DNA of 64,000 nucleotides, from NCBI RefSeq assembly GCF_964355755.1, contig NC_092676.1, positions 4,379,888 to 4,443,887 of the forward strand, written 5' to 3'. A model generated the notes under the pieces. The model searched no databases and was not told where the DNA came from. It was given only the letters and a program-made list of their open reading frames with translations. Of the stretch, positions 38,423 through 64,000 are shown piece after piece (the stretch's first letter is position 1; each line of letters opens with the position of its first letter). The stretch comes from Antedon mediterranea. Taxonomy: Eukaryota > Animalia > Echinodermata. A program made the translations under genes and the position numbers.

Positions 38423-38498
38423 ATGTTTGTCTTTAAAGTGGTAATAATATTGGTGGAGTTATCGTTTTCTAGTTGTGCTGATGTTGGTTCAAATGCCG
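38423..38498 (+). CDS. Signal-peptide exon of SRCR-LRR gene
   Basis: [25 protein letters not shown] then G|gtatga phase-1 donor; an in-frame upstream ATG at 38351 is also possible. Confidence 0.6.
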
Positions 38499-41400: not shown

Positions 41401-44400
41401 TTTGTATGCGTATTATCACATACGATTGTTACGTCACACAATATAAGATTTGACTGGTTTTAATCGCTGGACATCGCCTCCATTTTGAGTGCGTATTATC
41501 ACATACGATTGCTACGTCACATTTTATAAGATTTGACTGGTCTTGATCGCCGGACATCGCTTCAATTTTGTATGCGTATTATCACATACGATTGCTACGT
41601 CACACTTTATAAGATATGACTGGTTTTAATCGCCGGACATCGCTTCCATTTTGTATGCGTATTATCACACACGATTGTTACGTCACACTTTATAAGATTT
41701 GACTGGTTTTGAACACCGGACATCACTTCCATTCTGTATGCGTATTATCACATACGATTGTTACGTCACACTTTATAAGATTTGACTGGTTTTAATCGCC
41801 GGACATCGCTTCAATTTTGTATGCGTATTATCACATACGATTGTTACGTCACACTTTATAAGATCTGACTGGTTTTAATCGCCGGACATCGCTTCAATTT
41901 TGTATGCGTATTATCACATACGATTGTTACGTCACACTTTATAATATTTGAATGGTTTTGATCGCCGGACATCACTTCAATTTTGTATGCGTATTATCAC
42001 ATACTATTGTTACGTCACACTTTATAAGATTTGACTGGTTTTAATCGCCGGACATCGCTTCAATTTTGTATGCGTATTATCACATACGATTGTTACGTCA
42101 CACTTTATAAGATTTGACTGGTTTTAATCGCCGGACATCGCTTCCATTTTGTATGCGTATTATCACATACGATTGTTACGTCACACTTTATAAGATTTGA
42201 CTGGTTTTGATCGCCGGACATAACTTCAATTTTGTATGCGTATTATCACATACTATTGTTACGTCACACTTTATAAGATTTGACTGGTTTTAATCGCCGG
42301 ACATCGCTTCAATTTTGTATGCGTATTATCACATACGATTGTTACGTCACACTTTATAAGATTTGACTGGTTTTAATCGCCGGACATCGCGTCCATTTTG
42401 TATGCGTATTATCACATACGATTGTTACGTCACACTTTATAAGATTTGACTGATTTTAATCGCCGGACATCGCCTCCATTTTGTATACGTATTATCACAT
42501 ACGATTGTTACGTCACACTTTATAAGATTTGACTAGTTTTGATCGCCGGACATCACTTCCATTTTGTATGCGTATCATTACATACGATTGTTACGTCACA
42601 CTTTATAATATTTGACTGGTTTTGATCGCCGGACATCGCTTCCATTTTGTATGCGTATTATCACATACGATTGTTACGTCACACAATATAAGATTTGACT
42701 GGTTTTAATCGCTGGACATCGCCTCCATTTTGAGTGCGTATTATCACATACGATTGCTACGTCACATTTTATAAGATTTGACTGGTCTTGATCGCCGGAC
42801 ATCGCTTCAATTTTGTATGCGTATTATCACATACGATTGCTACGTCACACTTTATAAGATATGACTGGTTTTAATCGCCGGACATCGCTTCCATTTTGTA
42901 TGCGTATTATCACACACGATTGTTACGTCACACTTTATAAGATTTGACTGGTTTTGATCGCCGGACATCGCTTCCATTTTGTATGCGTATTATCACATAC
43001 GATTGTTACGTCACACTTTATAAGATTTGACTGGTTTTAATCGCCGGACATCGCTTCAATTTTGTATGCGTATTATCACATACGATTGTTACGTCACACT
43101 TTATAAGATTTGAATGGTTTTGATCGCCGGACATCACTTCAATTTTGTATGCGTATTATTATCACATACGATTGTTACGTCACACTTTATAAGATTTGAC
43201 TGGTTTTAATCGCCGGACATCACTTCAATTTTGGATGCGTATTATCATATACGATTGTTACGTCACACTTTATAATATTTGACTGGTTTTGATCACCGGA
43301 AATCACTTCCATTGTGTATGCGTATTATCACATACGATTGCTACGTCACACTTTATAAGATTTGACTGGTTTTAATCGCCGGACATCACTTCAATGTTGC
43401 ATGCGTATTATCACATACGATTGTTACGTCACACTTTATAAGATTTGACTGGTTTTGATCGCCGGACATCACTTCAATTTTGTATGCGTATTATCACATA
43501 CGATTGTTACGTCACACTTTAAAAGATTTGACTGGTTTTAATCGCCGGACATCGCTTCAATTTTGTATGCGTATTATCACATACGATTGTTACGTCACAC
43601 TTTATAATATTTGACTGGTTTTGATCACCGGACATCACTTCCATTGTGTATGCGTATTATCACATACGATTGCTACGTCACACTTTATAAGATTTGACTG
43701 GTTTTAATCGCCGGACATCACTTCAATGTTGCATGCGTATTATCACATACGATTGTTACGTCACACTTTATAAGATTTGACTGGTTTTGATCGCCGGACA
43801 TCGCTTCCATTTTGTATGCGTATTATCACAAACGATTGCTACGTCACACTTTATAAGATTTGAATGGTTTTGATCGCCGGACATCGCTTCCCTTTTGTAT
43901 GCTTATTATCACATACGATTGTTACGTCACATTTTATAAGATTTGACTGGTTTTGATCGCCGGACATGACTTCAATTTTGTATGCGTATTATCACATACG
44001 ATTGCTACGTCACACTTTATAAGATTTGACTGGTTTTAATCGCCGGACATCACTTCCATTGTGTATGCGTATTATCACATACGATTGTTACGTCACACGT
44101 TATAAGATTTGACTGGTTTTAATCGCCGGACATCGCTTCCATTTTGTATGCGTATTATCACTTACGATTGTTACGTCACACTTTATAAGATTTGACTGGT
44201 TTTAATTGCCGAACATCGCTTCAATTTTGTATGCGTATTATCACATACGATTGTTACGTCACACTTTATAAGATTTGAATGGTTTTGATCGCCGGACATC
44301 ACTTCAATTTTGTATGCGTATTATCACATACGATTGTTACGTCACACTTTATAAGATTTGACTGGTTTTAATCGCCGGACATCGCTTCCATTTTGTATGC

Positions 44401-47400
44401 GTATTACCACATACAATTGTTACGTCACACTTTATAAGATTAGGCTGGTTTTAATCGCCAGACGTCACTTCCATTTTGTATGCGTATTATCACATACGAT
44501 TGTTACGTCACACTTTATAAGATTAGGCTGGCTTTAATCGCCGGACATCACTTCCATTTTGTATGCGTATTATCACATACGATTGTTACGTCACACTTTA
44601 TAAGATTAGGCTGGTTTTAATCACCGGACATCGCTTCAATTTTGTATGCGTATTATCACATACGATTGTTACGTCACACTTTATAAGATCTGACTGGTTT
44701 TAATCGCCGGACATCGCTTCAATTTTGTATGCGTATTATCACATACGATTGTTACGTCACACTTTAAAATATTTGAATGGTTTTGATCGCCGGACATCAC
44801 TTCAATTTTGTATGCGTATTATCACATACTATTGTTACGTCACACTTTATAAGATTTGACTGGTTTTAATCGCCGGACATCGCTTCAATTTTGTATGCGT
44901 ATTATCACATACGATTGTTACGTCACACTTTATTAGATTTGACTGGTTTTAATCGCCGGACATCGCTTCCATTTTGTATGCGTATTATCACATACGATTG
45001 TTACGTCACACTTTATAAGATTTGACTGGTTTTGATCGCCGGACATCACTTCAATTTTGTATGCGTATTATCACATACTATTGTTACGTCACACTTTATA
45101 AGATTTGACTGGTTTTAATCGCCGGACATCGCTTCAATTTTGTATGCGTATTATCACATACGATTGTTACGTCACACTTTATAAGATTTGACTGGTTTTA
45201 ATCGCCGGACATCGCGTCCATTTTGTATGCGTATTATCACATACGATTGTTACGTCACACTTTATAAGAATTGACTGATTTTAATCGCCGGACATCGACT
45301 CCATTTTGTATGCGTATTATCACATACGATTGTTACGTCACACTTTATAAGATTTGACTGGTTTTAATCGCCGGATATCACTTCCATTCTGTATGCGTAT
45401 TATCACATACGATTGTTACGTCACACTTTATAAGATTTGACTGGTTTTAATCGCCGGACATCGCTTCAATTTTGTATGCGTATTATCACATACGATTGTT
45501 ACGTCACACTTTATAAGATCTGACTGGTTTTAATCGCCGGACATCGCTTCAATTTTGTATGCGTATTATCACATACGATTGTTACGTCACACTTTAAAAT
45601 ATTTTAATGGTTTTGATCGCCGGACATCACTTCAATTTTGTATGCGTATTATCACATACTATTGTTACGTCACACTTTATAAGATTTGACTGGTTTTAAT
45701 CGCCGGACATCGCTTCAATTTTGTATGCGTATTATCACATACGATTGTTACGTCACACTTTATTAGATTTGACTGGTTTTAATCGCCGGACATCGCTTCC
45801 ATTTTGTATGCGTATTATCACATACGATTGTTACGTCACACTTTATAAGATTTGACTGGTTTTGATCGCCGGACATCACTTCAATTTTGTATGCGTTTTA
45901 TCACATACTATTGTTACGTCACACTTTATAAGATTTGACTGGTTTTAATCGCCGGACATCGCTTCAATTTTGTATGCGTATTATCACATACGATTGTTAC
46001 GTCACACTTTATAAGATTTGACTGGTTTTAATCGCCGGACATCGCGTCCATTTTGTATGCGTATTATCACATACGATTGTTACGTCACACTTTATAAGAA
46101 TTGACTGATTTTAATCGCCGGACATCGACTCCATTTTGTATGCGTATTATCACATACGATTGTTACGTCACACTTTATAAGATTTGACTAGTTTTGATCG
46201 CCGGACATCACTTCCATTTTGTATGCTTATCATCACATACGATTGTTACGTCACACTTTATAATATTTGACTGGTTTTGATCGCCGGACATCGCTTCCAT
46301 TTTGTATGCGTATTATCACATACGATTGTTACGTCACACATTATAAGATTTGACTGGTTTTAATCGCCGGACATCGCCTCCATTTTGTATGCGTATTATC
46401 ACATACGATTGCTACGTCACATTTTATAAGATTTGACTGGTCTTGATCGCCGGACATCGCTTCAATTTTGTATGCGTATTATCACATACGATTGCTACGT
46501 CACACTTTATAAGATATGACTGGTTTTAATCGCCGGACATCACTTCCATTGTGTATGCGTATTATCACATACGATTGTTACGTCACACTTTATAAGATTT
46601 GACTGGTTTTAATCGCCGGACATCACTTCCATTTTGTGTTCGTATTATCACATACGATTGTTACGTCACACTTTATAAGATTTGAATGGTTTTGATCGCC
46701 GGACATCACTTCCATTCTGTATGCGTATTATCACAAACGATTGCTACGTCACACTTTATAAGATTTGAATGGTTTTGATCGCCGGACATCGCTTCCATTT
46801 TGTATGCGTATTATCACATACGATTGTTACGTCACACTTTATAAGATTTGACTGGTTTTGATCGCCGGACATCACTTCAATTTTGTATGCGTATTATCAC
46901 ATACGATTGCTACGTCCACTTTATAAGATTTGACTGGTTTTAATCGCCGGACATCACTTCCATTGTGTATGCGTATTATCACATACGATTGTTACGTCAC
47001 ACTTTATAAGATTTGACTGGTTTTAATCGCCGGACATCGCTTCCATTTTGTATGCGTATTATCACATACGATTGTTACGTCACACTTTATAAGATTTGAC
47101 TGGTTTTAATCGCCGGACATCGCTTCAATTTTGTATGCGTATTATCACATACGATTGTTACGTCACACTTTATAAGATTTGAAATGGTTTTGATCGCCGG
47201 ACATCACTTCAATTTTGTATGCGTATTATCACATACGATTGTTACGTCACACTTTATAAGATTTGACTGGTTTTAATCGCCGGACATCACTTCAATTTTC
47301 TATGCGTATTATCATATACCATTGTTACGTCACACTTTATAAGATTTGACTGGTTTTGATCACCGGACATCACTTCCATTGTGTATGCGTATTATCACAT

Positions 47401-50400
47401 ACGATTGCTACGTCACACTTTATAAGATTTGACTGGTTTTAATCGCCGGACATCACTTCAATGTTGCATGCGTATTATCACATACGATTGTTATGTCACA
47501 CTTTATAAGATTTGACTGGTTTTGATCGCCGGACATAGCTTCAATTTTGTATGCGTATTATCACATACGATTGTTACGTCACACTTTAAAAGATTTGACT
47601 GGTTTTAATCGCCGGACATCGCTTCAATTTTGTATGCGTATTATCACATACGATTGTTACGTCACACTTTATAAGATTTGACTGGTTTTAATCGCCGGAC
47701 ATCACTTCCATTCTGTATGCGTATTATCACATACGATTGTTACGTCACACTTTATAAGATCTGACTGGTTTTAATCGCCGGACATCGCTTCAATTTTGTA
47801 TGCGTATTATCACATACGATTGTTACCTTCACACTTTATAAGATTTGACTGGTTTTGAACACCGGACATCACTTCCATTTTGTATGCGTATTATCACATA
47901 CGATTGTTACGTCACACTTTATAAGATTTGACTGGTTTTGATCACCGGACATCACTTCCATTTTGTATGCGTATTATCACATATGATTGTTACGTCACAC
48001 TTTATAAGTTTTGACTGGTTTTGATCGCCGGACATCACTTCAATTTTGTATGCGTATTATCACATACTATTGTTACGTCACACTTTATAAGATTTGACTG
48101 GTTTTAATCGCCGGACATCGCTTCAATTTTGTATGCGTATTATCACATACGATTGTTACGTCACACTTTATAAGATTTGACTGGTTTTAATCGCCGGACA
48201 TCGCTTCCATTTTGTATGCGTATTATCACATACGATTGTTACGTCACACTTTATAAGATTTGACTGATTTTAATCGCCGGACATCGCCTCCATTTTGTAT
48301 GCGTATTATCACATACAATTGTTACGTCACACTTTATAAGATTTGACTAGTTTTGATCGCCGGACATCACTTCCATTTTGTATGCGTATCATCACATACG
48401 ATTGTTACGTCACACTTTATAATATTCGACTGGTTTTGATCGCCGGACATCGCTTCCATTTTGTATGCGTATTATCACATACGATTGTTACGTCACACAT
48501 TATAAGATTTGACTGGTTTTAATCGCCGGACATCGCCTCCATTTTGTATGCCTATTATAACATACGATTGCTACGTCTCATTTTATAAGGTTTGACTGGT
48601 CTTGATCGCCGGACATCGCTTCAATTTTGTATGCGTATTATCACATACGATTGCTACGTCACACTTTATAAGATATGACTGGTTTTAATCGCCGGACATC
48701 GCTTCCATTTTGTATGCGTATTATCACACATGATTGTTACGTCACACTTTATAAGATTTGACTGGTTTTGATCGCCGGACATCACTTCAATTTTGTATGC
48801 GTATTATCACATACGATTGTTACGTCACACTTTAAAAGATTTGACTGGTTTTAATCGCCGGACATCGCTTCAATTTTGTATGCGTATTATCACATACGAT
48901 TGTTACGTCACACTTTATAAGATTTGACTGGTTTTAATCGCCGGACATCACTTCCATTCTGTATGCGTATTATCACATACGATTGTTACGTCACACTTTA
49001 TAAGATCTGACTGGTTTTAATCGCCGGACATCGCTTCAATTTTGTATGCGTATTATCACATACGATTGCTACGTCACACTTTATAAGATATGACTGGTTT
49101 TAATCGCCGGACATCGCTTCCATTTTGTATGCGTATTATCACACACGATTGTTACGTCACACTTTATAAGATTTGACTGGTTTTGATCGCCGGAAAATGT
49201 CTTTTTTTTTCATATTTTCGTTCATTGCCACCATTCACACTTTGTATCCATGTCCCAATTATATTACTCATTAAATGTTAAAATAAAAACGTTAAGAAAT
49301 TTCAAGTTGCTTCTCATCTTATAAAATACTAGGCAGTTTGTCACAGTTGGAAAACAGAACCAGTTATTTTTTTATTTAGTTGCAATCTCAAAATCATAAT
49401 TTGGTTAAGAAATTTATTATCCATTTACACATTTTCATTCATCATTTCATTTTATATCTGTTCATTTTATATCTGTTCATTTTATATCTGTTCATTTTAT
49501 ATCTGTTCATTTTATATCTGTTCATTTTATATCTGTTCATTTTATATCTGTTCATTTTATATCTGTTCATTTTATATCTGTTCATTTTATATCTGTTCAT
49601 TTTATATCTGTTCATTTTATATCTGTTCATTTTATATCTGTTCATTTTATATCTGTTCATTTTATATCTGTTCATTTTATATCTGTTCATTTTATATCTG
49701 TTCATTTTATATCTGTTCATTTTATATCTGTTTATTTTAGTTCATTCAATTTTTACAAAACAGTAGACATAAATGTTAAAAGGTACCAGAAAATAATAAA
49801 TAATAATGAAGATAATGTTATTTAGTGATGAAAGCTTAAAATGTTAAAAATGTTTCTATGGGCAGATATTATCTCATATTAAGATATACCTCATCATTTA
49901 AATATCCTTTATATTGAACAGGTTTTAAATTTAGGAATAAACTGTTTAATAGCAGTAATTAATGATACTATATTAGGTACCCTTACAATGGACGGGCGCC
50001 ATCTTATGATTATTTTAAGGTTCGGGAATCAAAAAGATAGTACAGTAATATAATGTAATGTCCTGAGATACTTGTGTCAGATTTACATCAGCTATTCAAA
50101 TAGACTTAACAAGAGTATAGCTTCACAGTGAGAGATATATCAATATAAAGAACTGATTTTAACTTGTACATTTGTTTCATTTAGTAAACATTAGACTTGT
50201 GAATGGCAACAATTTCTATGAGGGGCGAGTTGAAGTTTACGATGGCACAGAATGGGGTACAATATGTGATAATGGCTGGGACATCAACGACGCTCAAGTT
50301 GTATGTCGACAATTAAGACTAGGACCAGCTATCCAAGCTCCAGGGCAAGCTCATTTTGGTCAAGGGACTGGTCCGATTATGCTTGATGATGTTCAATGTT

Positions 50401-53400
50401 CAGGAACTGAGACATCTATCACAGACTGTCCTAATAATGGAATGAGGGTACACAATTGTGAACATTCTGAGGATGCTAGTGTTATTTGTGGTAGGTAAAG
50501 TAGTAACTGTAAAAAGGATTAACACAGAAAACAACAACACTGTAAGGCCAAGACAACTTTTTTAACTAGGAAATGTTTATCCCAGTTGAAAAGGAAAATC
50601 AATTTTGTTTTGTTCATAAGCTAATCTTTTTAATATTTTTGTTTATTTCCACCATTTAAATTTTTATTCACGTCCCAGTTATATTCATTAAATGTTAAAA
50701 TAAAAACGTCAAGAAATTTCAAGTTGCTACTCATTTTATAAAATAATGGGCAGTTTGTCGGAGTTGGAAAACAGAACCAGTTGTAATTTTTATTTGGTTG
50801 CAATCTCAAAATCATATTTGTATGCGTATTATCACATACGATTGTTATGTCGCACTTTATAAGATTTATAGATGACAAATTTCGTTTTTGTAAAAGCACA
50901 AGTTAACGGAGTACTTACTCGAACGTTTCGATCTCTATCAGAGATCCTTCTCAACTGACTGCGGAGTGTTAATGCAGCTTGGTCATTCTTGACGTCATCT
51001 GTTGATGACGTTGTACGCCTCCGGTTGTAGGTTGGAGGTTGTGCGGGGCTCGGCCAGGTGATGTGTCTATCAAATCATTGTACAAATGCGAGAGTTCGTG
51101 GGCTCCAGTGTCCCGGTTCATGGTCTTCTCTTTATTTCTCCTTATATGTAATGATTCTCTAATCTGTCTGTCTTTGCGTTTAGGCTCTTTGGTTAAGATG
51201 GTAGCCTCCCAGTTCGGTACATGATTGTGTTTTATGACATGTTCTGTAATGGCAGATTTGTGTATGATCGAAGATGTGGATGTTCTGGAGGCCCTAGTCA
51301 TTACTCCCCCCGTGTTTGTTGTAACATCTTTTTTGTGATCATTAATTCGTGTTTGTAATGCCCTCCCTGTTTCCCCAATGTAAACTTGTGGACAGTTGCG
51401 GCAGGTGACTTCGTAGATTACTCCACATGTATCCATCTTCTCGATTTTATCTTTTGGGTGGACGAGGCTATTCTTGATTTTATTTTGGGGTAGGAAATAG
51501 GTTCCGACATTGTGATAGGAGAGAGTGCGTCGTATTCTTTCTGCCATTCCTTTATAAGATTTGACTGGTTTTAATCGCCGGACATCACTTCAATTTTGTA
51601 TGCGTATTATCACATAGGATTGTTACGTCACACTTTATAAGATTAGGCTGGTTTTAATCGCCGGACATCGCTTCCATTTTGTATGCGTATTACCACATAC
51701 AATTGTTACGTCACACTTTATAAGATTAGGCTGGTTTTAATCGCCAGACGTCACTTCCATTTTGTATGCGTATTATCACATACGATTGTTACGTCACACT
51801 TTATAAGATTAGGCTGATTTTAATCGCCAGACGTCACTTCCATTTTGTATGCGTATTATCACATACGATTGTTACGTCACACTTTATAAGATTAGGCTGG
51901 TTTTAATCGACGGACATCGCTTCCATTTTGTATGCGTATTATCACATACGATTGTTACGTCGCACTTTATAAGATTTGACTGGTTTTGATCGCCGGACAT
52001 CACTTCCATTTTGTATGCGTATTATCACATACGATTGTTACGTCACACTTTATAAGATTTGACTGGTTTTAATCGCCGGACATCGCTTCCATTTTCGTTG
52101 CTTATTATTACTAACCCTTGATACGTCACACTTTGTAATATTTGGCTGGTTTTGATCGCCGGACATCGCTTCCATTTTGTATGCGTATTATCACATACGA
52201 TTGTCTTTATAAGATTTGGCTGGTTCTGATCGCCGGACATCACTTCCATTTCCGTTGCATAGTATCACATACGATTGTTACGTAGCACTTTATAAGATTA
52301 GGTAGGTTTTAATCGCCGGACATCGCTTCCATTTTCGTTGCATAGTATACATACGATTGTTACGTCACACTTTATAAGATTTGGCAGGTTTTGATAGGCG
52401 GACATCGCCTCCATTTTCGTTGCATAGTATCACATACGATTGTTACGTATAGCACTTTATAAGATTAGGTAGGTTTTGATCGCCAGTCATCGCTTCCATT
52501 TCCGTTGCATAGTATCACATACGATTGTTACGTCACACTTTATAAGATTAGGTAGGTTTTGATCGCCGGACATCACTTCCATTTTCGTTGCATAGTATAC
52601 ACACGATTGTTATGTCGCACTTTATAAGATTTGACTGGTTTTAATCGCCGGATATCACTTCCATTTTGTATACGTATTATCACATACGATTGTTACGTCA
52701 CATTTTATAAGATTCGGTAGGTTTTGATCGGCGAACATCACTTCCATTTTCGTTGCATAGTATCACATATGATTTTTACGTCACACTTTATAAGATTTGG
52801 CTGGTTTTGATCGTCGGACATCGCTTCCATTTTGTATGCGTATTATCACATACGACTGTTACGTCACACTTTATAAGATTTGACTGGTTTTGATCGCCGG
52901 ACATCCCTTACATTCTGTATGCATATGATCACATACGATTGTTACGTAACACTAAGATTCGGCAGGTTTTGATCTCTGCGCATCACTTTCATTTTCGTTG
53001 CATAGTATCACATACGATTACTATTTTATCTAATTGTCGCATTTGATAATTTAAAGATTATAAGCAGTAATTACTATAATTAAGTAATAATAATTTAATT
53101 TTAGGCTTCAGTAAACATTTTCCGCAAACTATATATTTACTTATTTGTAGGGCAGAATATTATTACCCCTCACTTTAAGAATACCGTGCAAAAGTACTAC
53201 TACTACTGCACCACTACCACCCCTACCACCACTACTACTAACATTCAGTAGGATTAATAGCAGTATACATTTAAATAAAGAAATGTTTTAAACTATATTG
53301 TAATTGTTGTTATGCAGACATTAGACTTGTGGATGGCAGCAATATTTATGAGGGGCGAGTTGAAGTTTACGATGGTACAGAATGGGGTACAATATGTGAT

Positions 53401-56400
53401 GATGACTGGGACAATACACACACACAATACAAACTTCGAATTCAAATTCATTTATTGCAACTGAGTAAACATTGTTGAACTTACAAAAGTACTGGTAAAA
53501 CATTAATAAATATGAAAAATACAAATTCACATACATGAAAAATACATCAACATATTTACAAAGGCAAAAGTAAATTATATAGTAATCTAATAGTTATTTT
53601 TTATTTATTTATTTTGGTTCAAGTTCCGGTACATTTATTTATCATAATTTAATATATATTATACAGTAATAAAGTACAGGAGGAGTGTTATTTATCTAAT
53701 TGTCATTATTTGATAATTTAAAGATGATAACAGTAATTAATATAATTAATTAATATTACATTTATAAAGAAACTTGTACATTTTTTTAATTTTAATAGTA
53801 AACATTAGACTTGTGGATGGCAGCAATATTTATGATGGGCGAGTTGAAGTTTACGATGGTACAGAATGGGGTACAATATGTGATGATGACTGGGACATTA
53901 ACAACGCTCAGGTTGTATGTCAACAATTAAGACTAGGACAAGCTATCCAAGCTCCAGGGCAAGCTCATTTTGGTCAAGGGACTGGTCCGATTATGCTTGA
54001 TAATGTTCGGTGTTCAGGAAATGAGACATCCATCACAGACTGTCCTAATAGAGGAATGAGGGTACACGATTGTGGACATTCTGAGGATGCTAGTGTTGTT
54101 TGTGGTAGGTAAAGTAGAAACTGTATAAAAAGGATCACTAAATACAGACAACAACAATACTCTAAGGCCAACACACTTTTTAAACTACTGGGGCGGATCC
54201 AGAGGGGGGGTCCACGGGGTCCGGACCCCCCCCTAAATTTTAAGGGTGCCCTTTTTTTAGAGGTTCAATATTGTATTCGTGTGACATATTTGTGTGTATA
54301 TTAGTATGCACAGAGTAGGCTACACTAACCCCAAAAATAAAAACAGAAATTTATCACAATGAGCGCGATGTTAAAGTTACGGCGGCCGATCAAAGAGCAT
54401 CGTGAGAGGTGGTGACGCGTGATGATCTCTACTTAAACTTCTAAAAATAGATCGTTTCACATACTACAGAGGGCGCATGTAAACTTTTTACGATTCAACT
54501 CCGCGTACGTTACCATGCGCGCTATGTCATTGACGCGATTATTTGTCCATTGGTAAACACATTTTTATGTATTATTATTCTGAAAATAATTGAACTGTAA
54601 ACATAATTCTTTTGAGTATTTGTTTATTTACATATCATTCCATCAGATCAACTATTTTTTATTTCCATTACATCCAACCAAACATGTAAAAAATGTAGTT
54701 AAAATATCGTACTATCTAGCGCGTACGACCATACGCGGTAGATTGTTTACTCAAAAATCATCGAACGGTCCTTACATTATTCAGGGAGTTGTAAAATCAA
54801 CTCCCTGCACTAGTCAACCTTGTTTTTGTAGTTGAGCCTCTCATGACCTGAGATTTTTTTGTCTTCCTACGCCAAGATAATATAGTTCTACAAGCCATGT
54901 GCTTTTTTCTCTGAGAAATATTTATTATAAGTGCCAAAAAAATCGATATGAAGCCTTTATTATTCAAATCTTTTAAAGAAAAATCACACATACCATAAAG
55001 AAGGTTCATTTATTTCATTTTTTAAACAATATTTGTGAAAATTACGTGAGGCTCAACTACAAAACCACCATTTTGTGATATAATGTCATCGTAAGCCAAT
55101 CAAAGCTGAGCTTTCCCGCGAACGCTTCCCGCGTTCGGCAGAACTCACGGTTGAATGATTTTGGATTCTGGCTATTTGATTGGTGGACGCGAATCACCCA
55201 CAGCGGAATGTTTTCTCTCTCTCGCGTGTACCAAGAAGTCACGTGATCTCTCTGTACTGAACGGTACGACACAAATTTAGAGCAATGAATTTGTACGAAT
55301 TCCGTTAAATAAACAACTCTATATATTTTATAAACATTTAATAACATATTTTATTGATATTTCCAATGTTGATATATAAAAGAAATTACTATAAAACGTA
55401 ATTATATGTAATTATTTTAGCGAAAAATGGCGCAATTTGTTTACAACTTTCGTGGCTAAAAACGATCATTTTCGGCAATGTTTTAGACCCTATATTTCGA
55501 AAACTACAACAAGTCAGATTTTCGTAATTCTTTCTTTATTGGAATATTGAAACAAAATACCAACAGATAATGTTTAAATTGGTTGAAAAATAACAACTTT
55601 TAATTTTGCATCGTTATCCCTGCTAATAAAGTGTCATTTCCGGCGAACTAGAAAGGTGCCATTTATCATGGATTTTGCGTGCGAGAGTGCCATTTCCGGC
55701 CATCTAAGTGTGTTCTGTAACAAAATTCGCTTCGCCACAACCCCCACCATGGGGGGGCTGTGGCTCAAATACTCAATGTCTGATGTGCCCTTTTTATCGC
55801 TGGACCCCCCCTCTTAAAAATGTCTGGATCCGCCCCAGAACTAGGAAATGTCAATCTGTTTATCTCAGTTTAAAAGGAAAATGTTTTTTTTTCATATTTT
55901 TGTTCATTGCCACCATTCACACTTTGTGTCCTTTGTATCCTTACTTTGTGAGTGGTCGAGCGGTTAAGACAGTCGAACCGTAATTACGTAGCCATAACAT
56001 CGGCAGGGGTTCGAGGCTCACTCACTCCATGGTTGTGGTGGTAGAACGAGTCTTCTCGGATAAGGTCTATAAACCGTAGGTACAGTGTACACATCTAGCT
56101 CGTGTGCACTTTAAATAACCTAGTACATCTTTCGAGACGAGTAGGGGATTACCCCGGTGTATTAGTACATCACAGCCACTGATCACCAACTGGGCCCTCT
56201 GGGAGACCAGTCTTTGACTGAAGAGGTTACCCAGTATAAATATATATTTCAATCAATCAATCAATCCACGTCCCAGTTATATTACTCATTAAATGTTAAA
56301 TAAAAACGTTCAGCAATTTCAAGCTGTTTCTCATCTTATAAAATAATGGGCAGTTTGTCAGAGTTGGAAAACAGAACCAGTTTATTTTTTATTTGGTTGC

Positions 56401-59400
56401 AATCTTAAAATCATAATTTGTTTAAGAAATGTATTATCCATTTACACATATTCATTCATCATTTAATTTTATATCTGTTTATTTCAGTTCATTTAATTTT
56501 TACAAAACAGTAGACATAAATGTAAAAAGGTACCAGAAAATAATAAACTAATAATGAAGATAATGTTATTTAGTGATGAAAGCTTAAATGTTAAAAATAT
56601 TTCTAAGGGCAGATATTATCTCATATTAAGATATACCTCATCGTTTAATCATCCTCTATTGAACAGGTTTTAAATTTAGGAATAAACTGTTTAATAGCAG
56701 TAATCAATAATACTATATTAGGTACCCTTACAATGGACGGGCGCCATCTTATGATTATTTTAAGGTTCAGGAATCAAAAACATATTACAGTAATATAATG
56801 TAATGTCTTGAGATACTTGTGTCAGATTTACATCAGCTATTCAAATAGACTTAACGAGAGTATAGCTTCACAGTGAGAGATATATCAATATAAAGAACTG
56901 ATTTTAACTTGTACATTTGTTTCATTTAGTAAACATTAGACTTGTGAATGGCAGCAATATCTATGAGGGACGAGTTGAAGTTTACGATGGCACAGAATGG
57001 GGTACAATATGTGATAATGTCTGGGACATCAACGACGCTCAAGTTGTATGTCGACAATTAAGACTAGGACCAGCTATCCAAGCTCCAAGACAAGCTTATT
57101 TTGGTCAAGGGACTGGTCCGATTATGCTTGATGATGTTCAGTGTTCAGGAACTGAGACATCCATCACAGACTGTCCTAATAGAGGAATGAGGGTACACTA
57201 TTGTGGACATTATGAGGATGCCAGTGTTATTTGTCAATGTAAGGAAAATTTGACACTAAATACAAACTTCAGTACTAACAGACGATATTACAATACACTA
57301 TTGACTAAGAGGGAGTGTTTTGTTTTATAAATTATATAAAAATAAGTTCTATTTTCAATAGTTTTATCCATTTAGAGAAAAAAGAGGTTAAAGCTACATT
57401 TGGCGTCATTTATTCTCCTTATATAATATTCCATTGTTTAACACGACGAAATGAACAATACCATTAAATTAAACAGTGTAATAATGAAGCTTAAATATAA
57501 TATGTTTTTATTTCACCTGTATCGAATTATAAGAATTTATGTTCATCTTTAAAATACTCATTGTTATCACACACCACCAGTATTCATCATTATCGTAGTG
57601 TTCTACTATGTAAGATAGAAATAAAGTACTTGGTAATGTTGTTGTTTTACATGAATTACTGAATTGTATTATTTACTGCTTGTGTTTTTTTTAAACAAAA
57701 TCATTATAGTAGGATGCCCAACATATTGCACCTGTAATGTCCAGAAGTGTAACACAGCAGATTGTTATAATAACACTAGATGTACTCAATGGAATGCAAA
57801 TATACATACAGAGCTTGTTGAGTACAATGTGTATGATCCAATAACAAGATTGTAAGTAGAACATTTTTTGTCGATATTTTGAAATCTAACTAAATTTATG
57901 TCATACTGTAAGCAAAATCTACAATGTATATTTCTTTGATAATAGGTCCATGCTATTTATACAGCAGGATCATGATAATATTGAACAAAGGGGGAGTGGG
58001 TGGATTTTGTTAATGTGGAACTACTGGTCACCTTGTGGCGGTCTACAGTATATTTAGGTCGTTTCAATCAGTTTACAGGCTCATCATTAATCTGGTCAAT
58101 TTTCGTATACGACATTTTACGTAAGAATGTGATAGTAGACTAAAAATAACATTTTTTATTTTAACATAGTATATTGTGACATCACTAAAGTACATACAAT
58201 AGAGTACATGCAGTATAACTATTGTATAATGTACAGGAATGTAGACATTTCAACATTTGAGGTGACAGAAAAACTAAAACAATTTAAAAACAGCTTGGAT
58301 ATTGTGATTTACTTACACTGTTCATTCTGGGATTTGAGCTATAACCAAATTAAGTACATGTTGGTTAAACAATGATAATGGTTTAATATTATATTGATTT
58401 CACAATTTGTGATCTTATAAAAATAACTTTAAAAATCAAGTTTTTTGTTCATCCACCATGTAATGACCTTTATTTTTTTTATATATAATAATTCAAAATC
58501 AATTTTTATTGTAAATATCACAATATAAATATAATTATATTTATATATATCATCATTACAAATGTTACTAAGTAATTAAAATTTGTTTATGTATTAATTT
58601 TGTCTTATGAGAAAAAATGTTTCAAAATATAAATATATATTTTATATTTTGACATTAAAATGTTTATGCAATACAGTGAATGCATTGTTGGATCAATTGT
58701 AATATTGGACTAATATGTTATACATTATGACTATTTACAGTAAAAAGAATTTTAAAATCAACATTTTTTAATTTATCAAATTATTCCAAATAATTTTAAA
58801 ATAAACATTTTTAAAATGTATCCACCATGATTGAACTATTTATTTTGGTAAGATCTAACAATTGAAACTAAATCTGTATTACATATAGATAATACATTTA
58901 TTATATGGTTGCTAACGAACAATTTGAAATTGGTGTAGAAATTTTGTTTTAATAAAATAAGTTATCAAAATAAATTTACCACATTTTTATTTTAACATAG
59001 TATATTTTGACATCACTAAAGTACATACAATATAGTACATGCAATATAACTACTGTATAATGTAGCCTACAGGAATGTAGACATTTCAACATTTGAGGTG
59101 ACAGAAAAACTAAAATAATTTAAAAACAGCTTGGATATTGTGATTTACTTATACTGTGCATTCTTTTTACTTTTAAGGGATTTGAGCGGTAACCAATTAA
59201 GTACATTACCAGCCAATGCATTTGCTGGTTTGACAGCATTGGAAACACTGTAAGTGTATTGCTTATGTTTGCTTACTTTTACTAATTTGGTTTTAATTTA
59301 GAAATTAAATTACAAATTATTTTACATTGTTGGTTTTCAAATTCAAAATTAATCTGAAATTTTAAAATTTCACAATATAAATATTATTATAATTATTGTT

Positions 59401-62400
59401 ATGCTAAATAATTAGTATTTGTTTATGTAGTGATTTTGTTTTATGAGAATAAAAATCATCACAATATAAATATATATTATATATTTTTACATCATTAAAA
59501 TGTTGATACAATACGGTGCATGTATTGTAGGTTCAATTGTAATAATGGACTTATATGTACCTTATGATTTCATGATTATTTACAATAACACCAATTTAAA
59601 AAGCAACAATTTTTTAATTTTTTCACCATGATTGAACTATTTATTTTTGTAAGACATAACAATTGAAACTGAATCTGTATTACATATAGATAATACATTT
59701 ATTATATGGTTGCTATCAAACAATTTGAATTTGTTGACATTTTGTTTTCAGAAAATATGTTAATCAAATAAATTTACAACATTTTTATTTTAACATAGTA
59801 TATTTTGACATCACTAAAGTACATACAATAGAGTACATGCAGTATAACTACTGTATAATGTACAGGAATGTAGACATTTCAACATTTGAGGTGACAGAAA
59901 AAACTAAAATAATTTAAAAACAGCTTGGATATTGTGATTTACTTATACTGTGCATTCTTTTTACTTTTAAGGGATTTGAGCGGTAACCAATTAAGTACAT
60001 TACCAGCCAATGCATTTGCTGGTTTGACAGCATTGGAAACACTGTAAGTGTATTGCTTATGTTTGCTTACTTTTACTAATTTGGTTTTAATTTAGAAATT
60101 AAATTACAAATTATTTTACATTGTTGGTTTTCAAATTCAAAATTAATCTGAAATTTTAAAATTTCACAATATAAATATTATTATAATTATTGTTATGCTA
60201 AATAATTAGTATTTGTTTATGTAGTGATTTTGTTTTATGAGAATAAAAATCATCACAATATAAATATATATTATATATTTTTACATCATTAAAATGTTGA
60301 TACAATACGGTGCATGTATTGTAGGTTCAATTGTAATAATGGACTTATATGTACCTTATGATTTCATGATTATTTACAATAACACCAATTTAAAAAGCAA
60401 CAATTTTTTAATTTTTTCACCATGATTGAACTATTTATTTTTGTAAGACATAACAATTGAAACTGAATCTGTATTACATATAGATAATACATTTATTATA
60501 TGGTTGCTATCAAACAATTTGAATTTGTTGACATTTTGTTTTCAGAAAATATGTTAATCAAATAAATTTACAACATTTTTATTTTAACATAGTATATTTT
60601 GACATCACTAAAGTACATACAATAGAGTACATGCAGTATAACTACTGTATAATGTACAGGAATGTAGACATTTCAACATTTGAGGTGACAGAAAAAATAA
60701 AATAATTTAAAAACAGCTTGGATATTGTGATTTACTTATACTGTGCATTCTTTTTACTTTTAAGGTCTTTGTACAGTAACCAAATAAGTACATTACAAGC
60801 CAATGCATTTGCTGGTTTGACAGCATTGGAATACCTGTAAGTGTATTGCTTATGTTTGCTTACTTTTAACAATTTGGTTTAAATTTAGAAATTAAATTAT
60901 AAATTATTTTACATTGTTGGTTAAACAATGATAATGGATTAATATTATTCTATAATTTCACAATTTGTGACCTTATAAAAAATATCTTTATAAATCACTA
61001 GTTTTAGTTCATCCACCATGAATGAACTTTATTTTTGTGTAATACATAATAATTTTAAAAATAATATTAATTGTAAAATTTCACAATATAAATATCATTA
61101 GAATGATTGTTATACTAAATAATTAGTATTTGTTTATGTAGTGATTTTGTTTTATGATAATACAAATTATTAAAATATAAATATATATTTTATATTTTGA
61201 CATCATTAAAATGTTGATACAATACAATGCATGTATTGTAGGATCAATTGTAATAATGGACTAATAATATGCATCAACATTTTTAAAATGTATCCACCAT
61301 GATTGAACTATTTATTTGTGTAAGATACTAAATATGTATTACATATTAGATAATACATTTATTGCATGGTTGCTAACAAACAATTTGAATTTGCTGTAAA
61401 CATTTCCTTTTGTGAAAATAAGTCATTTAAATATATTTACCACATTTTTATTTTAACATAGTATATTTTGTACATCACTAAAGTACATACAATAGAGTAC
61501 ATGCAGTATAACTACTGTATAATGTACAGGAATGTAGACATTTCAACATTTGAGGTGACAGAAAAACTAAAATAATTTAAAAACAGCTTGGATATTGTGA
61601 TTTACTTATACTGTGCATTCTTTTTACTTTTAAGGGATTTGAGAGAAAACAAAATAAGTACATTACCAGCCAATGTATTTGCTGGTTTGACAGCATTGAA
61701 ATACCTGTAAGTATATTGCTTATGTTTGCAAACTTTTATCAATTTGGTTTTAATTTAGAAATTAAATTATAAATTATTTTATATTGTTGGTTAAACAATG
61801 ATAATGGAATAATGGATTATATGTTAAAATAAAAATGTGATATATTTTAATAACTTATTTTGTTAAAATAAAATTTCTACAACAAATTAAAAATTGTTTG
61901 ATAGCAACCATATAATAAATGTATTATCTATATATAATACAGATTCAGTTTCTATTGTTATATCTTACAAAAATAAATAGTTCAATCATGGCGGATAAAT
62001 TTAAACAATGATAATGGATTAAAATTATTCTATAATTTCACAATTTGTGATCTTATAAAAAATATCTTAAAAATCACTAGTTTTTAGTTCATCCACCATG
62101 AATGAACTTTATTTTTGTGTAATACATAATAATTTTAAAAATAATATTAATTGTAAAATTTCACAATATAAATATCATTATAATGATTGTTATACTAAAT
62201 AATTAGTATTTGTTTATGTAGTGATTTTGTTTTATGAGAATAAAAATTATTAAAATATAAATATATATTTTATATTTTGACATCAGTAAAATGTTGATAC
62301 AATACAATGCATGTATTGTAGGATCAATTGTAATAATGGATTAATAATATGTATCAACATTTTTAAAATGTATCCACCATGATTGAACTATTTATTTTTG

Positions 62401-63695
62401 TAAGATATAACAAAAATGAATATTTATTACATATTAGATAATACATTTATTATATGGTTGCTAACAAACAATTTGAATTTATTGTAGACATTTTATTTTA
62501 ATGAAATAAGTTATTAAAATATACATTTTTACTTTAACATAGTATATTTTGACATCCTAAAGTACATACAATAGAGTACATGCAGTATAACTACTGTATA
62601 ATGTACAGGAATGTAGACATTTCAACATTTGAGGTGACAGAAAAATTAAAATAATTTTAAAACAGCTTGGATATTGTGATTTACTTATACTGTGCATTCT
62701 TTTTACTTTTAAGGTCTTTGTACAGTAACCAAATAAGTACATTACCAGCCAATGTATTTGCTGATTTGACAGCATTGAAAACACTGTAAGTGTATTGCTT
62801 ATGTTTGCTTACTTTTACCAATTTGGTTTTAATTTAGAAAATTAAATGAAAAATTGTTTTACATTGTTGGTTAAACAATGATAATGGATTAATATTATTA
62901 TATAATTTCACAATTTGTGATCTTATAAAAAAACTTTAAAAATCAATCGTTTTTTGCTCATCCAACATTAACAAACTTTATTTTTTTGAATAATATTATA
63001 ATAATTCAAAATACATTTTTATTGTAACTGTCACAATATAAATATTATTATAACAAATGTTACTAAATAATTAGTATTTGTTTATTTAGTGATTTTGTTT
63101 TAAGAGAATAAAAATTATTAAAATATAAATATATATTTTATATTTTGACATTAAAATATTGATACAATACAGTGCATGTATTGTAGGTTCGATTGTAATA
63201 AGGGAGTAATAATATGTACTTTATGATTTCATGATTATTTATAGTAAAAATAATTTTAAAGTGAACATTTTAAAAATGTATTCACCATGATTGAACTATT
63301 TATTTTTGTAAGATCTAACAATTGAAACTGAATCTGTATTACATATAGATAACACATTTATTATATGGTTGCTATCAAACAATTTGAATTTGTTGTAGAC
63401 ATTATATTTTAATAAAATATACATTAAAATATACATTTTTATTTTAACATAATATATTTTGACATAACTAAAGTACATACAATAGAGTACATGCAGTATA
63501 ACTACTGTATAATGTACAGGAATGTAGACATTTCAACATTTGAGGTGACAGAAAAACTAAAATAATTTAAAAACAGCTTGGATATTGTGATTTACTTATA
63601 CTGTGCATTTTTTTACTTTTAAGGTCTTTGTACGATAACCAAATAAGTACATTACAAGCCAATGCATTTGCTGGTTTGACAGCATTGGAAACACT
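38423..63695 (+). CDS. Multi-domain SRCR + LRR receptor-like protein (signal peptide - SRCRx3 - LRRNT - LRR x>=6), 3' end beyond window
   Basis: Phase-compatible exon chain: 38423-38498 (signal peptide, ends phase 1), 50185-50490, 53799-54104, 56930-57238 (SRCR, 1-1), 57710-57851 (LRRNT, 1-2), 59178-59249, 59972-60043, 60765-60836, 61635-61706, 62714-62785, 63624-63695 (LRR, 2-2). Joining into one transcript is inferred from phase and order. Confidence 0.82.
39570..49194. repeat. 83-bp satellite array, ~9.6 kb (~115 copies), intronic
   Basis: tatcacatacgattgttacgtcacactttataagatttgactggtttt(a/g)atcgccggacatc(a/g)cttc(a/c)attttgtatgcgtat; period 83 (tgttacg at 39601 and 39684). Confidence 0.99.
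49445..49735. repeat. 15-bp perfect tandem repeat x ~19
   Basis: ttcattttatatctg. Confidence 0.97.
50185..50490 (+). CDS. SRCR domain exon 1
   Basis: tttag|TA...G|gtaggt, 306 nt; [66 protein letters not shown] (6-Cys group A SRCR). Confidence 0.95.
50868..51549 (-). mobile_element. 5'-truncated Penelope-like retroelement (GIY-YIG endonuclease end), inserted in a satellite unit
   Basis: ORF 50969-51547(-): [42 protein letters not shown]....R.IRESLHI....MNRDTG; 13-bp duplication CTTTATAAGATTT at 50855-50867 and 51550-51562. Confidence 0.92.
51550..53020. repeat. Second array of the 83-bp satellite (~17 copies, more diverged toward the 3' end)
   Basis: Same unit as 39570-49194; variants tttcgttgcatagtatc and attaggtagg toward the 3' end. 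Confidence 0.97.
53318..53413 (+). pseudogene. Truncated SRCR pseudo-exon
   Basis: tatgcag|ACATTAGACTTGTG...; [31 protein letters not shown], then breaks off into (CA)n and a reverse-oriented AATAAA/TGAATT retro-tail-like sequence. Confidence 0.85.
53799..54104 (+). CDS. SRCR domain exon 2
   Basis: aatag|TA...G|gtaggt, 306 nt, complete SRCR consensus. Confidence 0.95.
54188..55838. mobile_element. Non-autonomous DNA transposon (hAT-like ends, 5-bp TSD)
   Basis: TIR CTGGGGCGGATCCAG...CTGGATCCGCCCCAG; AACTA duplicated at 54183-54187 and 55839-55843; empty site tttaactaggaaatg in the paralogous intron at ~50561. Confidence 0.88.
55946..56265 (+). mobile_element. tRNA-derived Deu/Nin-domain SINE with (CAAT)n tail
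   Basis: A-box tggtcgagcgg, B-box-like ggttcgagg, tcggataagg..taaaccgtagg..ttcgagacgagtagggg..accccggtgt domain; absent from the paralogous intron at ~49245. Confidence 0.82.
56930..57238 (+). CDS. SRCR domain exon 3
   Basis: tttag|TA...T|gtaagg, 309 nt, complete SRCR consensus. Confidence 0.95.
57710..57851 (+). CDS. LRR N-terminal cap (LRRNT) exon
   Basis: tatag|TAGGATGCCCA...TT|gtaagt; [24 protein letters not shown]...ITRL (CPxxCxC cap), phase 1-2. Confidence 0.8.
58329..58359 (+). pseudogene. Decayed LRR exon cassette
   Basis: GGGATTTGAGCTATAACCAAATTAAGTACAT (DLSYNQ..) preceded by the conserved intron block; the polypyrimidine tract/AG and the 3' half of the exon plus donor are deleted. 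Confidence 0.85.
59178..59249 (+). CDS. LRR exon 1 (24 aa)
   Basis: ttttaag|G...CT|gtaagt; [24 protein letters not shown]. Confidence 0.93.
59972..60043 (+). CDS. LRR exon 2 (24 aa)
   Basis: Identical to LRR exon 1: [24 protein letters not shown]. Confidence 0.9.
60765..60836 (+). CDS. LRR exon 3 (24 aa)
   Basis: [24 protein letters not shown], 72 nt, phase 2-2. Confidence 0.93.
61635..61706 (+). CDS. LRR exon 4 (24 aa)
   Basis: [24 protein letters not shown], 72 nt, phase 2-2. Confidence 0.93.
62714..62785 (+). CDS. LRR exon 5 (24 aa)
   Basis: [24 protein letters not shown], 72 nt, phase 2-2. Confidence 0.93.
63624..63695 (+). CDS. LRR exon 6 (24 aa)
   Basis: [24 protein letters not shown], 72 nt, phase 2-2. 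Confidence 0.93.
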
Positions 63696-64000
63696 GTAAG
63701 TGTATTGCTTATGTTTAATTTTTTGCTCATCCAACATTAACAAATTTTATTTTTTTGAATAATATGTAATTCAAAATAAATTTTTATTGTAACTGTCACA
63801 AATATAAATATTATTATAACTAATGTTACTAAATAATTAGTATTTGTTTATGTAGTGATTTTGTTTTATGAGAATAAAAATCATCAAAATATAAATATAT
63901 ATTATATAGTTTTACATCATTAAAATGTTGATACAATACATTGCATGTATTGTAGGATAAATTGTAATAATGGACTAATAATATGTACCTTATGATTCCA

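What the first reader, a model, noticed from the sequence alone, without database searches (positions are those of the whole stretch)
57710..64000. VLR-like array of single-LRR exon cassettes with hypervariable concave-face residues: candidate diversified immune receptor system
Seen: six intact 72-nt phase 2-2 exons, each one 24-aa LRR ([24 protein letters not shown] x2, [96 protein letters not shown]). They follow an LRRNT exon and the array runs off the window. By manual comparison every variable codon (10 of 24) changes the amino acid and none is purely synonymous. The multi-base changes sit at the x positions of LxxLxLxxN (D/S; S/R/Y; G/S/E/D; T/Y). Established: these positions form the concave ligand-binding beta-sheet and are the hypervariable sites of 24-aa LRRV modules in lamprey/hagfish VLRs. 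One-LRR-per-exon shuffling arrays are known in Ectocarpus ROCO genes. Inference: because all exons are symmetric, any subset can be spliced, duplicated or swapped in frame. The splice junction falls inside the beta-strand motif (xxL|xLxxN), so each new exon pairing builds a new binding strand. This suggests a combinatorial receptor-diversification system in an invertebrate.
Basis: partly seen in the sequence, partly recalled or inferred. Interest (0 to 1): 0.88.

Follow-up and report, generated by a model that had tools for sequence, protein, structure and literature searches.

The report
Feather-star receptor with reshuffled binding exons
A feather-star gene carries a young array of near-identical one-repeat exons that differ mostly at the predicted binding surface and appear to have swapped pieces; it is likely a G-protein-coupled receptor whose binding face is re-tuned over generations, not a lamprey-style receptor assembled in immune cells.

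Summary
The six 72-nt phase 2-2 LRR exons are real. Each sits in a recently duplicated exon+intron unit of 793-1079 bp, and a seventh is a broken copy. The animal is a crinoid (Antedon). The closest Antedon LRR relatives are GRL101-like LRR-GPCRs that share the repeat type, the LRRNT and apparently the intron flank, so the unseen C-terminus is probably a rhodopsin-type 7TM. Diversification is strong. Concave-face codons have pi 0.42 against 0.009 in the flanking intron, and omega > 1 is preferred (weak power). The exons are mosaics (45 of 136 site pairs fail the four-gamete test). SRCR exon number differs from RefSeq models of the matching locus. This fits germline unequal crossover and conversion plus diversifying selection, as in brown-algal ROCO genes. 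The exons have intact splice sites and lie inside the gene, unlike VLR donor cassettes. Exon skipping, somatic change and an immune role are untested.

The parts
38423..38498 (+). Signal-peptide exon (25 aa, phase-1 donor)
   Evidence: 22 of 25 residues identical to the matching segment of Antedon mediterranea XP_071956195.1 (P0085)
50185..50490 (+). SRCR exon 1 (phase 1-1)
   Evidence: Pfam PF00530 E 5.8e-33; boundaries
53318..53413 (+). Truncated SRCR exon copy (about 30 codons, then unrelated sequence)
   Evidence: self-BLAST; the same truncated copy is read through in P0085, 98% over 50 aa
53799..54104 (+). SRCR exon 2 (phase 1-1)
   Evidence: PF00530 E 1.6e-32; 97 of 101 aa identical to a P0085 domain
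56930..57238 (+). SRCR exon 3 (phase 1-1); duplicate of SRCR exon 1 together with about 470 nt of upstream intron (95%)
   Evidence: PF00530 E 5.6e-32; self-BLAST
57710..57851 (+). LRRNT-like Cys-rich cap exon (phase 1-2)
   Evidence: 33% over 39 aa, pairwise E 2e-5, to the pre-LRR cap of Antedon LRR-GPCR P0165; no Pfam hit
58148..58372 (+). Dead LRR cassette: conserved upstream flank (96%), acceptor deleted, 1-nt insertion, 3' part of exon deleted between two copies of a 5-nt microhomology; begins DLSYNQ
   Evidence: sequence
59178..59249 (+). LRR exon 1 (72 nt, phase 2-2)
59972..60043 (+). LRR exon 2, within an 800-bp exact duplicate of unit 1
60765..60836 (+). LRR exon 3
61635..61706 (+). 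LRR exon 4
61820..62010 (-). Inverted copy of the intron segment that lies about 175-390 nt upstream of each LRR acceptor (87-92% identical to all six)
62714..62785 (+). LRR exon 5
63624..63695 (+). LRR exon 6; the unit continues to the window end
60565..60764 (+). Example of the 200-nt intron flank that is 96-99.5% identical upstream of every cassette and is found nowhere else in the window
   Evidence: no Rfam match of note; fold z -0.87

Best explanation
The array is part of a feather-star gene whose signal-peptide, three SRCR, cap and six LRR exons are in compatible phases; the protein likely ends in a GRL101-like seven-transmembrane domain beyond the window, and its LRR binding face is likely diversified in the germline by unequal crossover and conversion between cassettes under selection to recognise a changing ligand. 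Shown: exon layout, recent unit duplication, one dead cassette, near-identical intron flanks around divergent exons, mosaic exons, and an excess of amino-acid change at concave-face codons. Inferred: the 200-nt shared flank seeds misaligned recombination; splitting each beta-strand across two exons means that a gain, loss or swap of a unit creates new strands; the 7TM C-terminus (about 0.8); and a non-self or microbial ligand (about 0.5, suggested by the SRCR domains and the pace of change).
For: (1) The 11 exons joined in silico give 523 codons with 0 stops, all with AG/GT ends. (2) Of 120 listed hits (of 342 at E<=10) for the LRR profile, the 2 Antedon proteins (XP_071963857.1, XP_071963861.1) are both LRR + 7tm_1. 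Their regular repeats match the window's at 14-17 of 23 residues. P0165 shares the cap. P0166's N-terminus matches the translated intron flank at 12 of 19 columns, which I read as a mis-called intron and so as shared intron ancestry. P0166's best PDB match is relaxin receptor 1, E 3.9e-65, and its top structural row in the Atlas is an echinoderm GRL101-like cluster. (3) Variable columns are 12 of 15 in concave-face codons against 5 of 57 elsewhere. pi is 0.418 at the concave codons, 0.040 in the rest of the exon, 0.009 in the 140-nt flank and 0.11-0.18 in distal intron; 0 of 18 non-concave third positions vary. (4) Free omega beats omega=1 by 2dlnL 8.8, 7.2 and 6.5 in three models, with the estimate at the bound of 50. 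Pooled pN 0.163, pS 0.033, whereas the SRCR exons have pN<pS in 3 of 3 pairs. (5) 45 of 136 pairs of biallelic sites show four gametes, Rm=3, including the 2-nt D/S and 3-nt T/Y alleles. (6) The ends of the 800-bp exact duplicate fall in the shared flank. (7) P0085 has five full SRCRs after the truncated copy where the window has two.
Against: The C-terminus is outside the window and no genome is held. No transcript joining SRCR to LRR, or LRR to LRR, was seen. The RefSeq models at the matching locus (P0085, P0013) are SRCR-only; they end at stops reached by reading through the splice donor, so they may be truncated, or a real secreted form. LRR likeness alone is not diagnostic: a metagenome protein (P0195) matches the repeats as well as P0165 does, and the best PDB match of the repeat profile is lamprey VLRA. 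No LDLa motif, the hallmark of type C LGRs, was found. The selection test rests on five 23-codon sequences with recombination and non-independent columns, which inflate significance. The flank may be under splicing constraint rather than homogenised. The query that found P0166 contained the intron-derived residues, so it was selected partly for that match. Nothing here bears directly on immune function.
Confidence: 0.65

Rival explanations
1. Same germline array, but the cell also makes many receptor isoforms by skipping or selecting LRR exons (ROCO- or Dscam-like). The inverted intron copy could pair with the segment upstream of any cassette and loop exons out.
For: All junction codons are CTG, so any subset is in frame. 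4 left x 4 right strand halves allow 16 junction types, 5 of which are used by the linear order. The inverted copy is 87-92% complementary to all six upstream segments. Brown-algal ROCO genes with this layout do show splice variants (PMC11378527, passages).
Against: All six acceptors and donors are strong and almost identical, as for constitutive exons. The inversion is what duplication errors also leave behind. No isoform data were obtained.
Confidence: 0.15
2. The LRR array belongs to a non-GPCR protein (single-pass, GPI-linked, TIR or secreted), or the SRCR exons are a separate gene.
For: C-terminus unseen; RefSeq SRCR-only models at the matching locus; the repeat profile matches VLR, SLITRK, LRRTM and Slit as well; the cap match to P0165 is weak (33%).
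Against: Both Antedon LRR hits listed are 7TM receptors and one shares the intron flank. Only 471 nt separate SRCR3 from the cap exon, phases fit, and no second start or signal exon was seen there.
Confidence: 0.12
3. Neutral repeat turnover in a decaying or relaxed gene: the array grows by slippage and the amino-acid differences are old paralogous variants that conversion has not yet erased.
For: Two dead exons, satellites and a retroelement fragment in the introns, no expression shown for the LRR exons.
Against: All six exons keep frame, splice sites and every structural Leu, Asn and Phe. Silent sites and flanks are homogenised while concave codons diverge three times more than distal intron.
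Confidence: 0.05
4. A VLR-like system: cassettes are copied somatically into an expressed locus in immune cells.
For: 24-aa repeats whose best PDB match is VLRA, E 4.5e-7; mosaic exons consistent with conversion-like exchange.
Against: The cassettes are spliceable exons within the reading frame of the gene, each with its own intron, not donor fragments beside an incomplete germline gene (VLR definition from PMC11160967, passages). Mosaicism is seen in the assembled genome itself and needs no somatic step.
Confidence: 0.03

Closest known systems
GRL101-like / type C LRR-containing GPCRs (LGRs); Antedon mediterranea XP_071963861.1 and XP_071963857.1
   Same: Repeat type (14-17 of 23 identical), cap, apparent intron flank; variation at the same positions 1, 3, 4, 22, 23; XP_071963861.1 holds a near-exact 3-repeat duplication. 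One-LRR, phase-2 exons are reported for gonadotropin receptor genes (PMC11378527, passages).
   Different: Type C LGRs carry LDLa modules (PMC11863921, passages); here SRCR domains sit in that place and no LDLa motif was found. Known LGRs bind conserved hormones, and crinoids were reported to have a single GRL101 (bioRxiv 10.1101/2021.04.15.440029, passages). The 7TM is not seen in the window.
Brown-algal ROCO genes with type I LRR exons (Zambounis et al. 2012, PMC3341825; Teng et al. 2024, PMC11378527; passages)
   Same: 72-nt phase-2 one-LRR exons, inactivated intronic copies, local inversions, positive selection on the concave face.
   Different: ROCOs are LRR-Roc-COR GTPases of algae; this is a secreted-pathway animal protein with SRCRs. 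Splice variants are shown there and not here.
Lamprey and hagfish VLRs (PMC11160967, passages)
   Same: 24-aa typical LRRs after an LRRNT, variable concave face, sequence likeness.
   Different: VLRs are assembled somatically from donor cassettes into an incomplete germline gene with deaminase help; here the repeats are in-frame spliceable exons in a multi-domain gene.
Pattern-recognition domains on GPCRs: placozoan CTLD-adhesion GPCRs (PMC6321704), amphioxus SRCR-adhesion GPCR (PMC2246102), Ciona LDLRR-GPCR expansion (PMC2396169), octopus group 3 adhesion GPCRs with LRRs (PMC6408891); all seen as passages
   Same: Lineage-specific GPCRs with swapped extracellular recognition modules.
   Different: Mostly adhesion-class or lacking LRRs; the passages seen describe no hypervariable one-LRR exon array.
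Sea-urchin SRCR family (PMC10855680, passages; PMC7308585, passages)
   Same: Single-exon SRCR domains, tandem gain and loss of exons, coelomocyte expression in urchins.
   Different: That survey has no occurrence of 'LRR' or 'GPCR' in its main text.

Membership tests
VLR | 24-aa LRRV-type modules after an LRRNT, variable concave face | tested here: met
VLR | Incomplete germline gene with non-coding intervening sequence, flanked by donor cassettes | tested here: not met
   Exons have AG/GT ends and join in one open frame with SP, SRCR and cap; only the 5' part of the locus is visible
VLR | Somatic, deaminase-associated assembly in lymphocytes | not testable with these tools
   needs soma versus germline long reads
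VLR | LRRCT, stalk, and TM or GPI anchor; no other N-terminal domains | tested here: not met
   three SRCR exons precede the cap in frame; C-terminus outside the window
Type C LGR (GRL101/RXFP-like) | Extracellular LRR solenoid after a signal peptide | tested here: met
Type C LGR (GRL101/RXFP-like) | Hinge and rhodopsin-type 7TM | tested here: inconclusive
   outside the window; present in both Antedon relatives
Type C LGR (GRL101/RXFP-like) | One or more LDLa modules before the LRRs | tested here: not met
   no LDLa motif on the + strand from 34900 to 64000; none in P0165 or P0166 at E<=0.1
Type C LGR (GRL101/RXFP-like) | 7TM phylogeny within the type C clade | not tested
   no tree built; only best-hit evidence for P0166
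ROCO-type shuffling LRR exon array | 72-nt phase-2 one-LRR exons with inactivated copies and local rearrangement | tested here: met
ROCO-type shuffling LRR exon array | Diversifying selection on concave-face codons | tested here: met
   small sample, recombination present
ROCO-type shuffling LRR exon array | Alternative splicing of LRR exons | not tested
   no reads could be laid on the array
ROCO-type shuffling LRR exon array | Roc-COR domain after the LRRs | tested here: inconclusive
   C-terminus unseen; signal peptide and SRCRs make it unlikely

The most novel reading that the evidence does not exclude
Feather stars have a family of pattern-recognition GPCRs in which an SRCR (or other) module is coupled to an LRR face built from interchangeable half-strand exons, and each animal diversifies that face within its lifetime by exon skipping or somatic unequal exchange: an anticipatory LRR receptor repertoire signalling through G proteins in a non-chordate deuterostome.
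Probability: 0.15. Interest if true: 0.9.

Novelty: new variant of a known kind. Interest (0 to 1): 0.52.

Why it matters
LGRs are known as conserved hormone receptors, and crinoid immune receptors are almost unstudied. An LGR-like gene with SRCR domains and an LRR face under rapid, recombination-driven diversification would show this receptor class being reused to recognise a variable ligand, by the exon mechanics described in brown-algal ROCO genes. The locus gives a direct test of whether one-LRR-per-exon arrays vary only between generations or also within an animal. My ten literature searches found no description of an SRCR-LRR-GPCR or such an array in crinoids; the library lacks most subscription papers, including sea-urchin genome papers that I recall, without having checked, mention multi-domain LRR-GPCRs.

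Tried and rejected
No genome is held for the window, so the array could not be extended. The cap exon found no relatives in the word-indexed search, and its 5 hits among cluster representatives were unrelated repeat proteins. Sequencing runs: no RNA holder is on record; best share 0.38. Summed contig depths over the SRCR exon are far above those of neighbouring intron, but the tool states that this is no copy number, so I do not use it. A structured RNA or snoRNA in the conserved flank was rejected: one chance Rfam match at E 2 and fold z -0.87. The flank is not a repeat dispersed elsewhere in the window. The 72-nt AG/GT candidate at 58049 is not an LRR. The 7TM part of the P0166 model was low-confidence and was not used; no fold search was run. 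The Atlas result for the N-terminus of P0165 (cytokine-receptor FN3-like, scores 0.77-0.81) is below the tool's bar and is a lead only. Duplex energies for the inverted intron copy have no shuffle control and are expected for any near-perfect 190-nt complement. Earlier-findings look-ups by place and sequence were blank. No supplements were read.
Full report
Observation. A scan for AG..72 nt..GT segments with an LRR-like translation gave 7 candidates between 57000 and 64000; 6 are the LRR exons reported and 1 (58049) is unrelated. Spacings are 794, 793, 870, 1079 and 910 bp. Introns as well as exons are homologous, at 80-96% over hundreds of bases. Units 1 and 2 are identical over 800 bp, from 74 nt before the exon to 726 nt after its start, so both ends fall in the shared upstream flank. 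A seventh copy near 58330 keeps the flank at 96% but has lost its acceptor and the 3' part of the exon. 17 of 72 exon columns vary, in 10 of 24 codons, all changing the residue.

The gene. On the same strand upstream lie a signal-peptide exon (38423-38498), three full SRCR exons (Pfam E about 1e-32), a truncated SRCR copy, and the cap exon (57710-57851). Phases run 1, 1-1, 1-1, 1-1, 1-2, then 2-2 six times; joined in silico the 11 exons give 523 codons without a stop. No LDLa motif was found. SRCR3 is 94% identical to two Antedon mediterranea RefSeq proteins. One of them, XP_071956195.1, shares the signal exon (22 of 25) and the read-through of the truncated SRCR (98% over 50 aa), so it comes from the matching locus in another haplotype or a close species. 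It has five full SRCRs after the truncated copy where the window has two, and the neighbouring model XP_071956197.1 has seven more. Both models are SRCR-only. They end at stops reached by reading through the donor, as the window's SRCR1 and SRCR2 would, so they neither confirm nor exclude the SRCR-LRR link.

Expression. In run X8, whose RNA status is a guess, 1 contig (depth 3, about 90% alike, so a paralogous copy) joins an SRCR exon end to an SRCR exon start in frame. X8 also has intronic pieces. X9 covers mainly the exon. This shows splicing of the SRCR exon family at most; it says nothing on the LRR exons.

Relatives of the LRRs. A profile of the five distinct exon frames gave 342 hits at E<=10, of which 120 were listed. 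Most are metagenome proteins; 2 are Antedon, both LRR plus 7tm_1, on a different chromosome-scale contig from the SRCR models. Their regular repeats match the window's at 14-17 of 23 residues, though one metagenome protein matches as well. Two further links are specific: the cap exon aligns with the pre-LRR cap of P0165 (33% over 39 aa, E 2e-5 pairwise), and the N-terminus of P0166 matches the translated intron flank at 12 of 19 columns, best read as a mis-predicted intron with shared ancestry. P0166 is closest to relaxin receptor 1 in the PDB and to echinoderm GRL101-like models in the Atlas. P0165 has a different N-terminal module before the same cap. I infer a family of LGR-like receptors with exchangeable N-terminal modules, and give about 0.8 that the window's gene ends in a 7TM.

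Where the variation falls. In the P0166 model (pLDDT about 73-95 over the LRRs) each beta-strand spans exon positions 23, 24 and 1, so the splice junction halves the strand. Taking positions 1, 3, 4, 22 and 23 as the concave face (from the LRR consensus; established knowledge), 12 of 15 columns vary against 5 of 57 elsewhere (Fisher p 1.4e-7; columns are not independent). Diversity is 0.418 there, 0.040 in the rest of the exon, 0.009 in the 140 nt upstream, and 0.11-0.18 in distal intron; 0 of 18 other third positions vary. So a block of about 290 nt around each exon is homogenised, except at the binding codons. Codon models on the five distinct exons prefer omega above 1 (2dlnL 6.5-8.8; estimate at the bound); power is low and recombination biases the test. 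The SRCR exons, as an internal control, show pN below pS in 3 of 3 pairs. The same positions vary most in the two paralogues.

Exchange between cassettes. 45 of 136 pairs among 17 biallelic sites show all four gametes, minimum 3 exchanges. The two-base D/S allele and the three-base T/Y allele occur in all four combinations, which repeated point mutation is unlikely to give. One incompatible pair is only 3 nt apart, so some recurrent mutation or very short tracts are also needed.

Mechanism. Most likely the near-identical flanks let units misalign, giving duplication, loss and conversion in the germline; selection keeps exchanges and mutations that alter the concave face. Because every junction codon is Leu, any change in number or order stays in frame and makes new strands: 16 junction types are possible from the halves seen, 5 are used. 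Receptor activation through a 7TM and a non-self ligand are inferred, not shown. Sensory or gamete recognition is a real alternative for the ligand: GRL101-like genes are reported in sensory tentacles of a starfish and a snail (PMC6267866, PMC13403566; passages).

Comparison. It works like brown-algal ROCO LRR arrays. It is not a VLR: the incomplete-germline-plus-donor layout is not met, although the repeat profile's best PDB match is VLRA. It is not a canonical type C LGR either, since LDLa is absent. A 2026 review describes echinoderm recognition diversity as germline-encoded (PMC13428168, passages). PMC4079206 (passages) added nothing on expansions. All papers were seen as search listings or keyword passages, none in full, and no supplements. 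Earlier AI notes on other genomes report similar arrays in an octopus adhesion GPCR and tunicate NLRs; they are unchecked and show only that the layout recurs.

Verdict. Real, with unusually clear signs of ongoing germline diversification, in a probable SRCR-LRR-GPCR not found described for crinoids in my searches. New variant of a known kind; interest 0.52.

Noticed in passing
window 61820-62010: Inverted copy of the segment upstream of every LRR acceptor; could pair in the pre-mRNA with any unit and affect splicing, or is a by-product of duplication.
   Followed up: partly
window 50490-50497 and 54104-54111: SRCR exons 1 and 2 reach an in-frame stop 2 codons past the donor, the same end as RefSeq model P0085; a secreted SRCR-only form is possible.
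   Followed up: no
window 39553-49194 and 51550-53019: 83-bp satellite (116 and 18 copies) inside introns of this gene; the first intron is about 11.7 kb.
   Followed up: no
window 50972-51589 (-): GIY-YIG-containing fragment (Pfam E 5e-4, below cut-off); recalled as resembling the end of a Penelope-like retroelement.
   Followed up: partly
window 1378-1608 and scattered exons to about 34850 (+): ANTH-domain exon; the upstream neighbour is probably PICALM/AP180 (assignment of further exons recalled, not tested).
   Followed up: partly
window 54190-55850: About 1.65-kb element with inverted ends in the intron between SRCR2 and SRCR3, seen in the sequence; probably a non-autonomous DNA transposon.
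   Followed up: no
P0165 residues 20-345: An Antedon LRR-GPCR of the same repeat type carries a different N-terminal module, weakly like cytokine-receptor FN3 domains, suggesting module swapping within the family.
   Followed up: partly
P0085 and P0013: Their SRCR domains repeat as a three-exon block, and P0166 holds a near-exact three-LRR duplication: multi-exon block duplication also occurs.
   Followed up: partly
window 25532-27326, 15817-16700, 20164-20799: Homogeneous minisatellites of 36, 30 and 45 bp.
   Followed up: no
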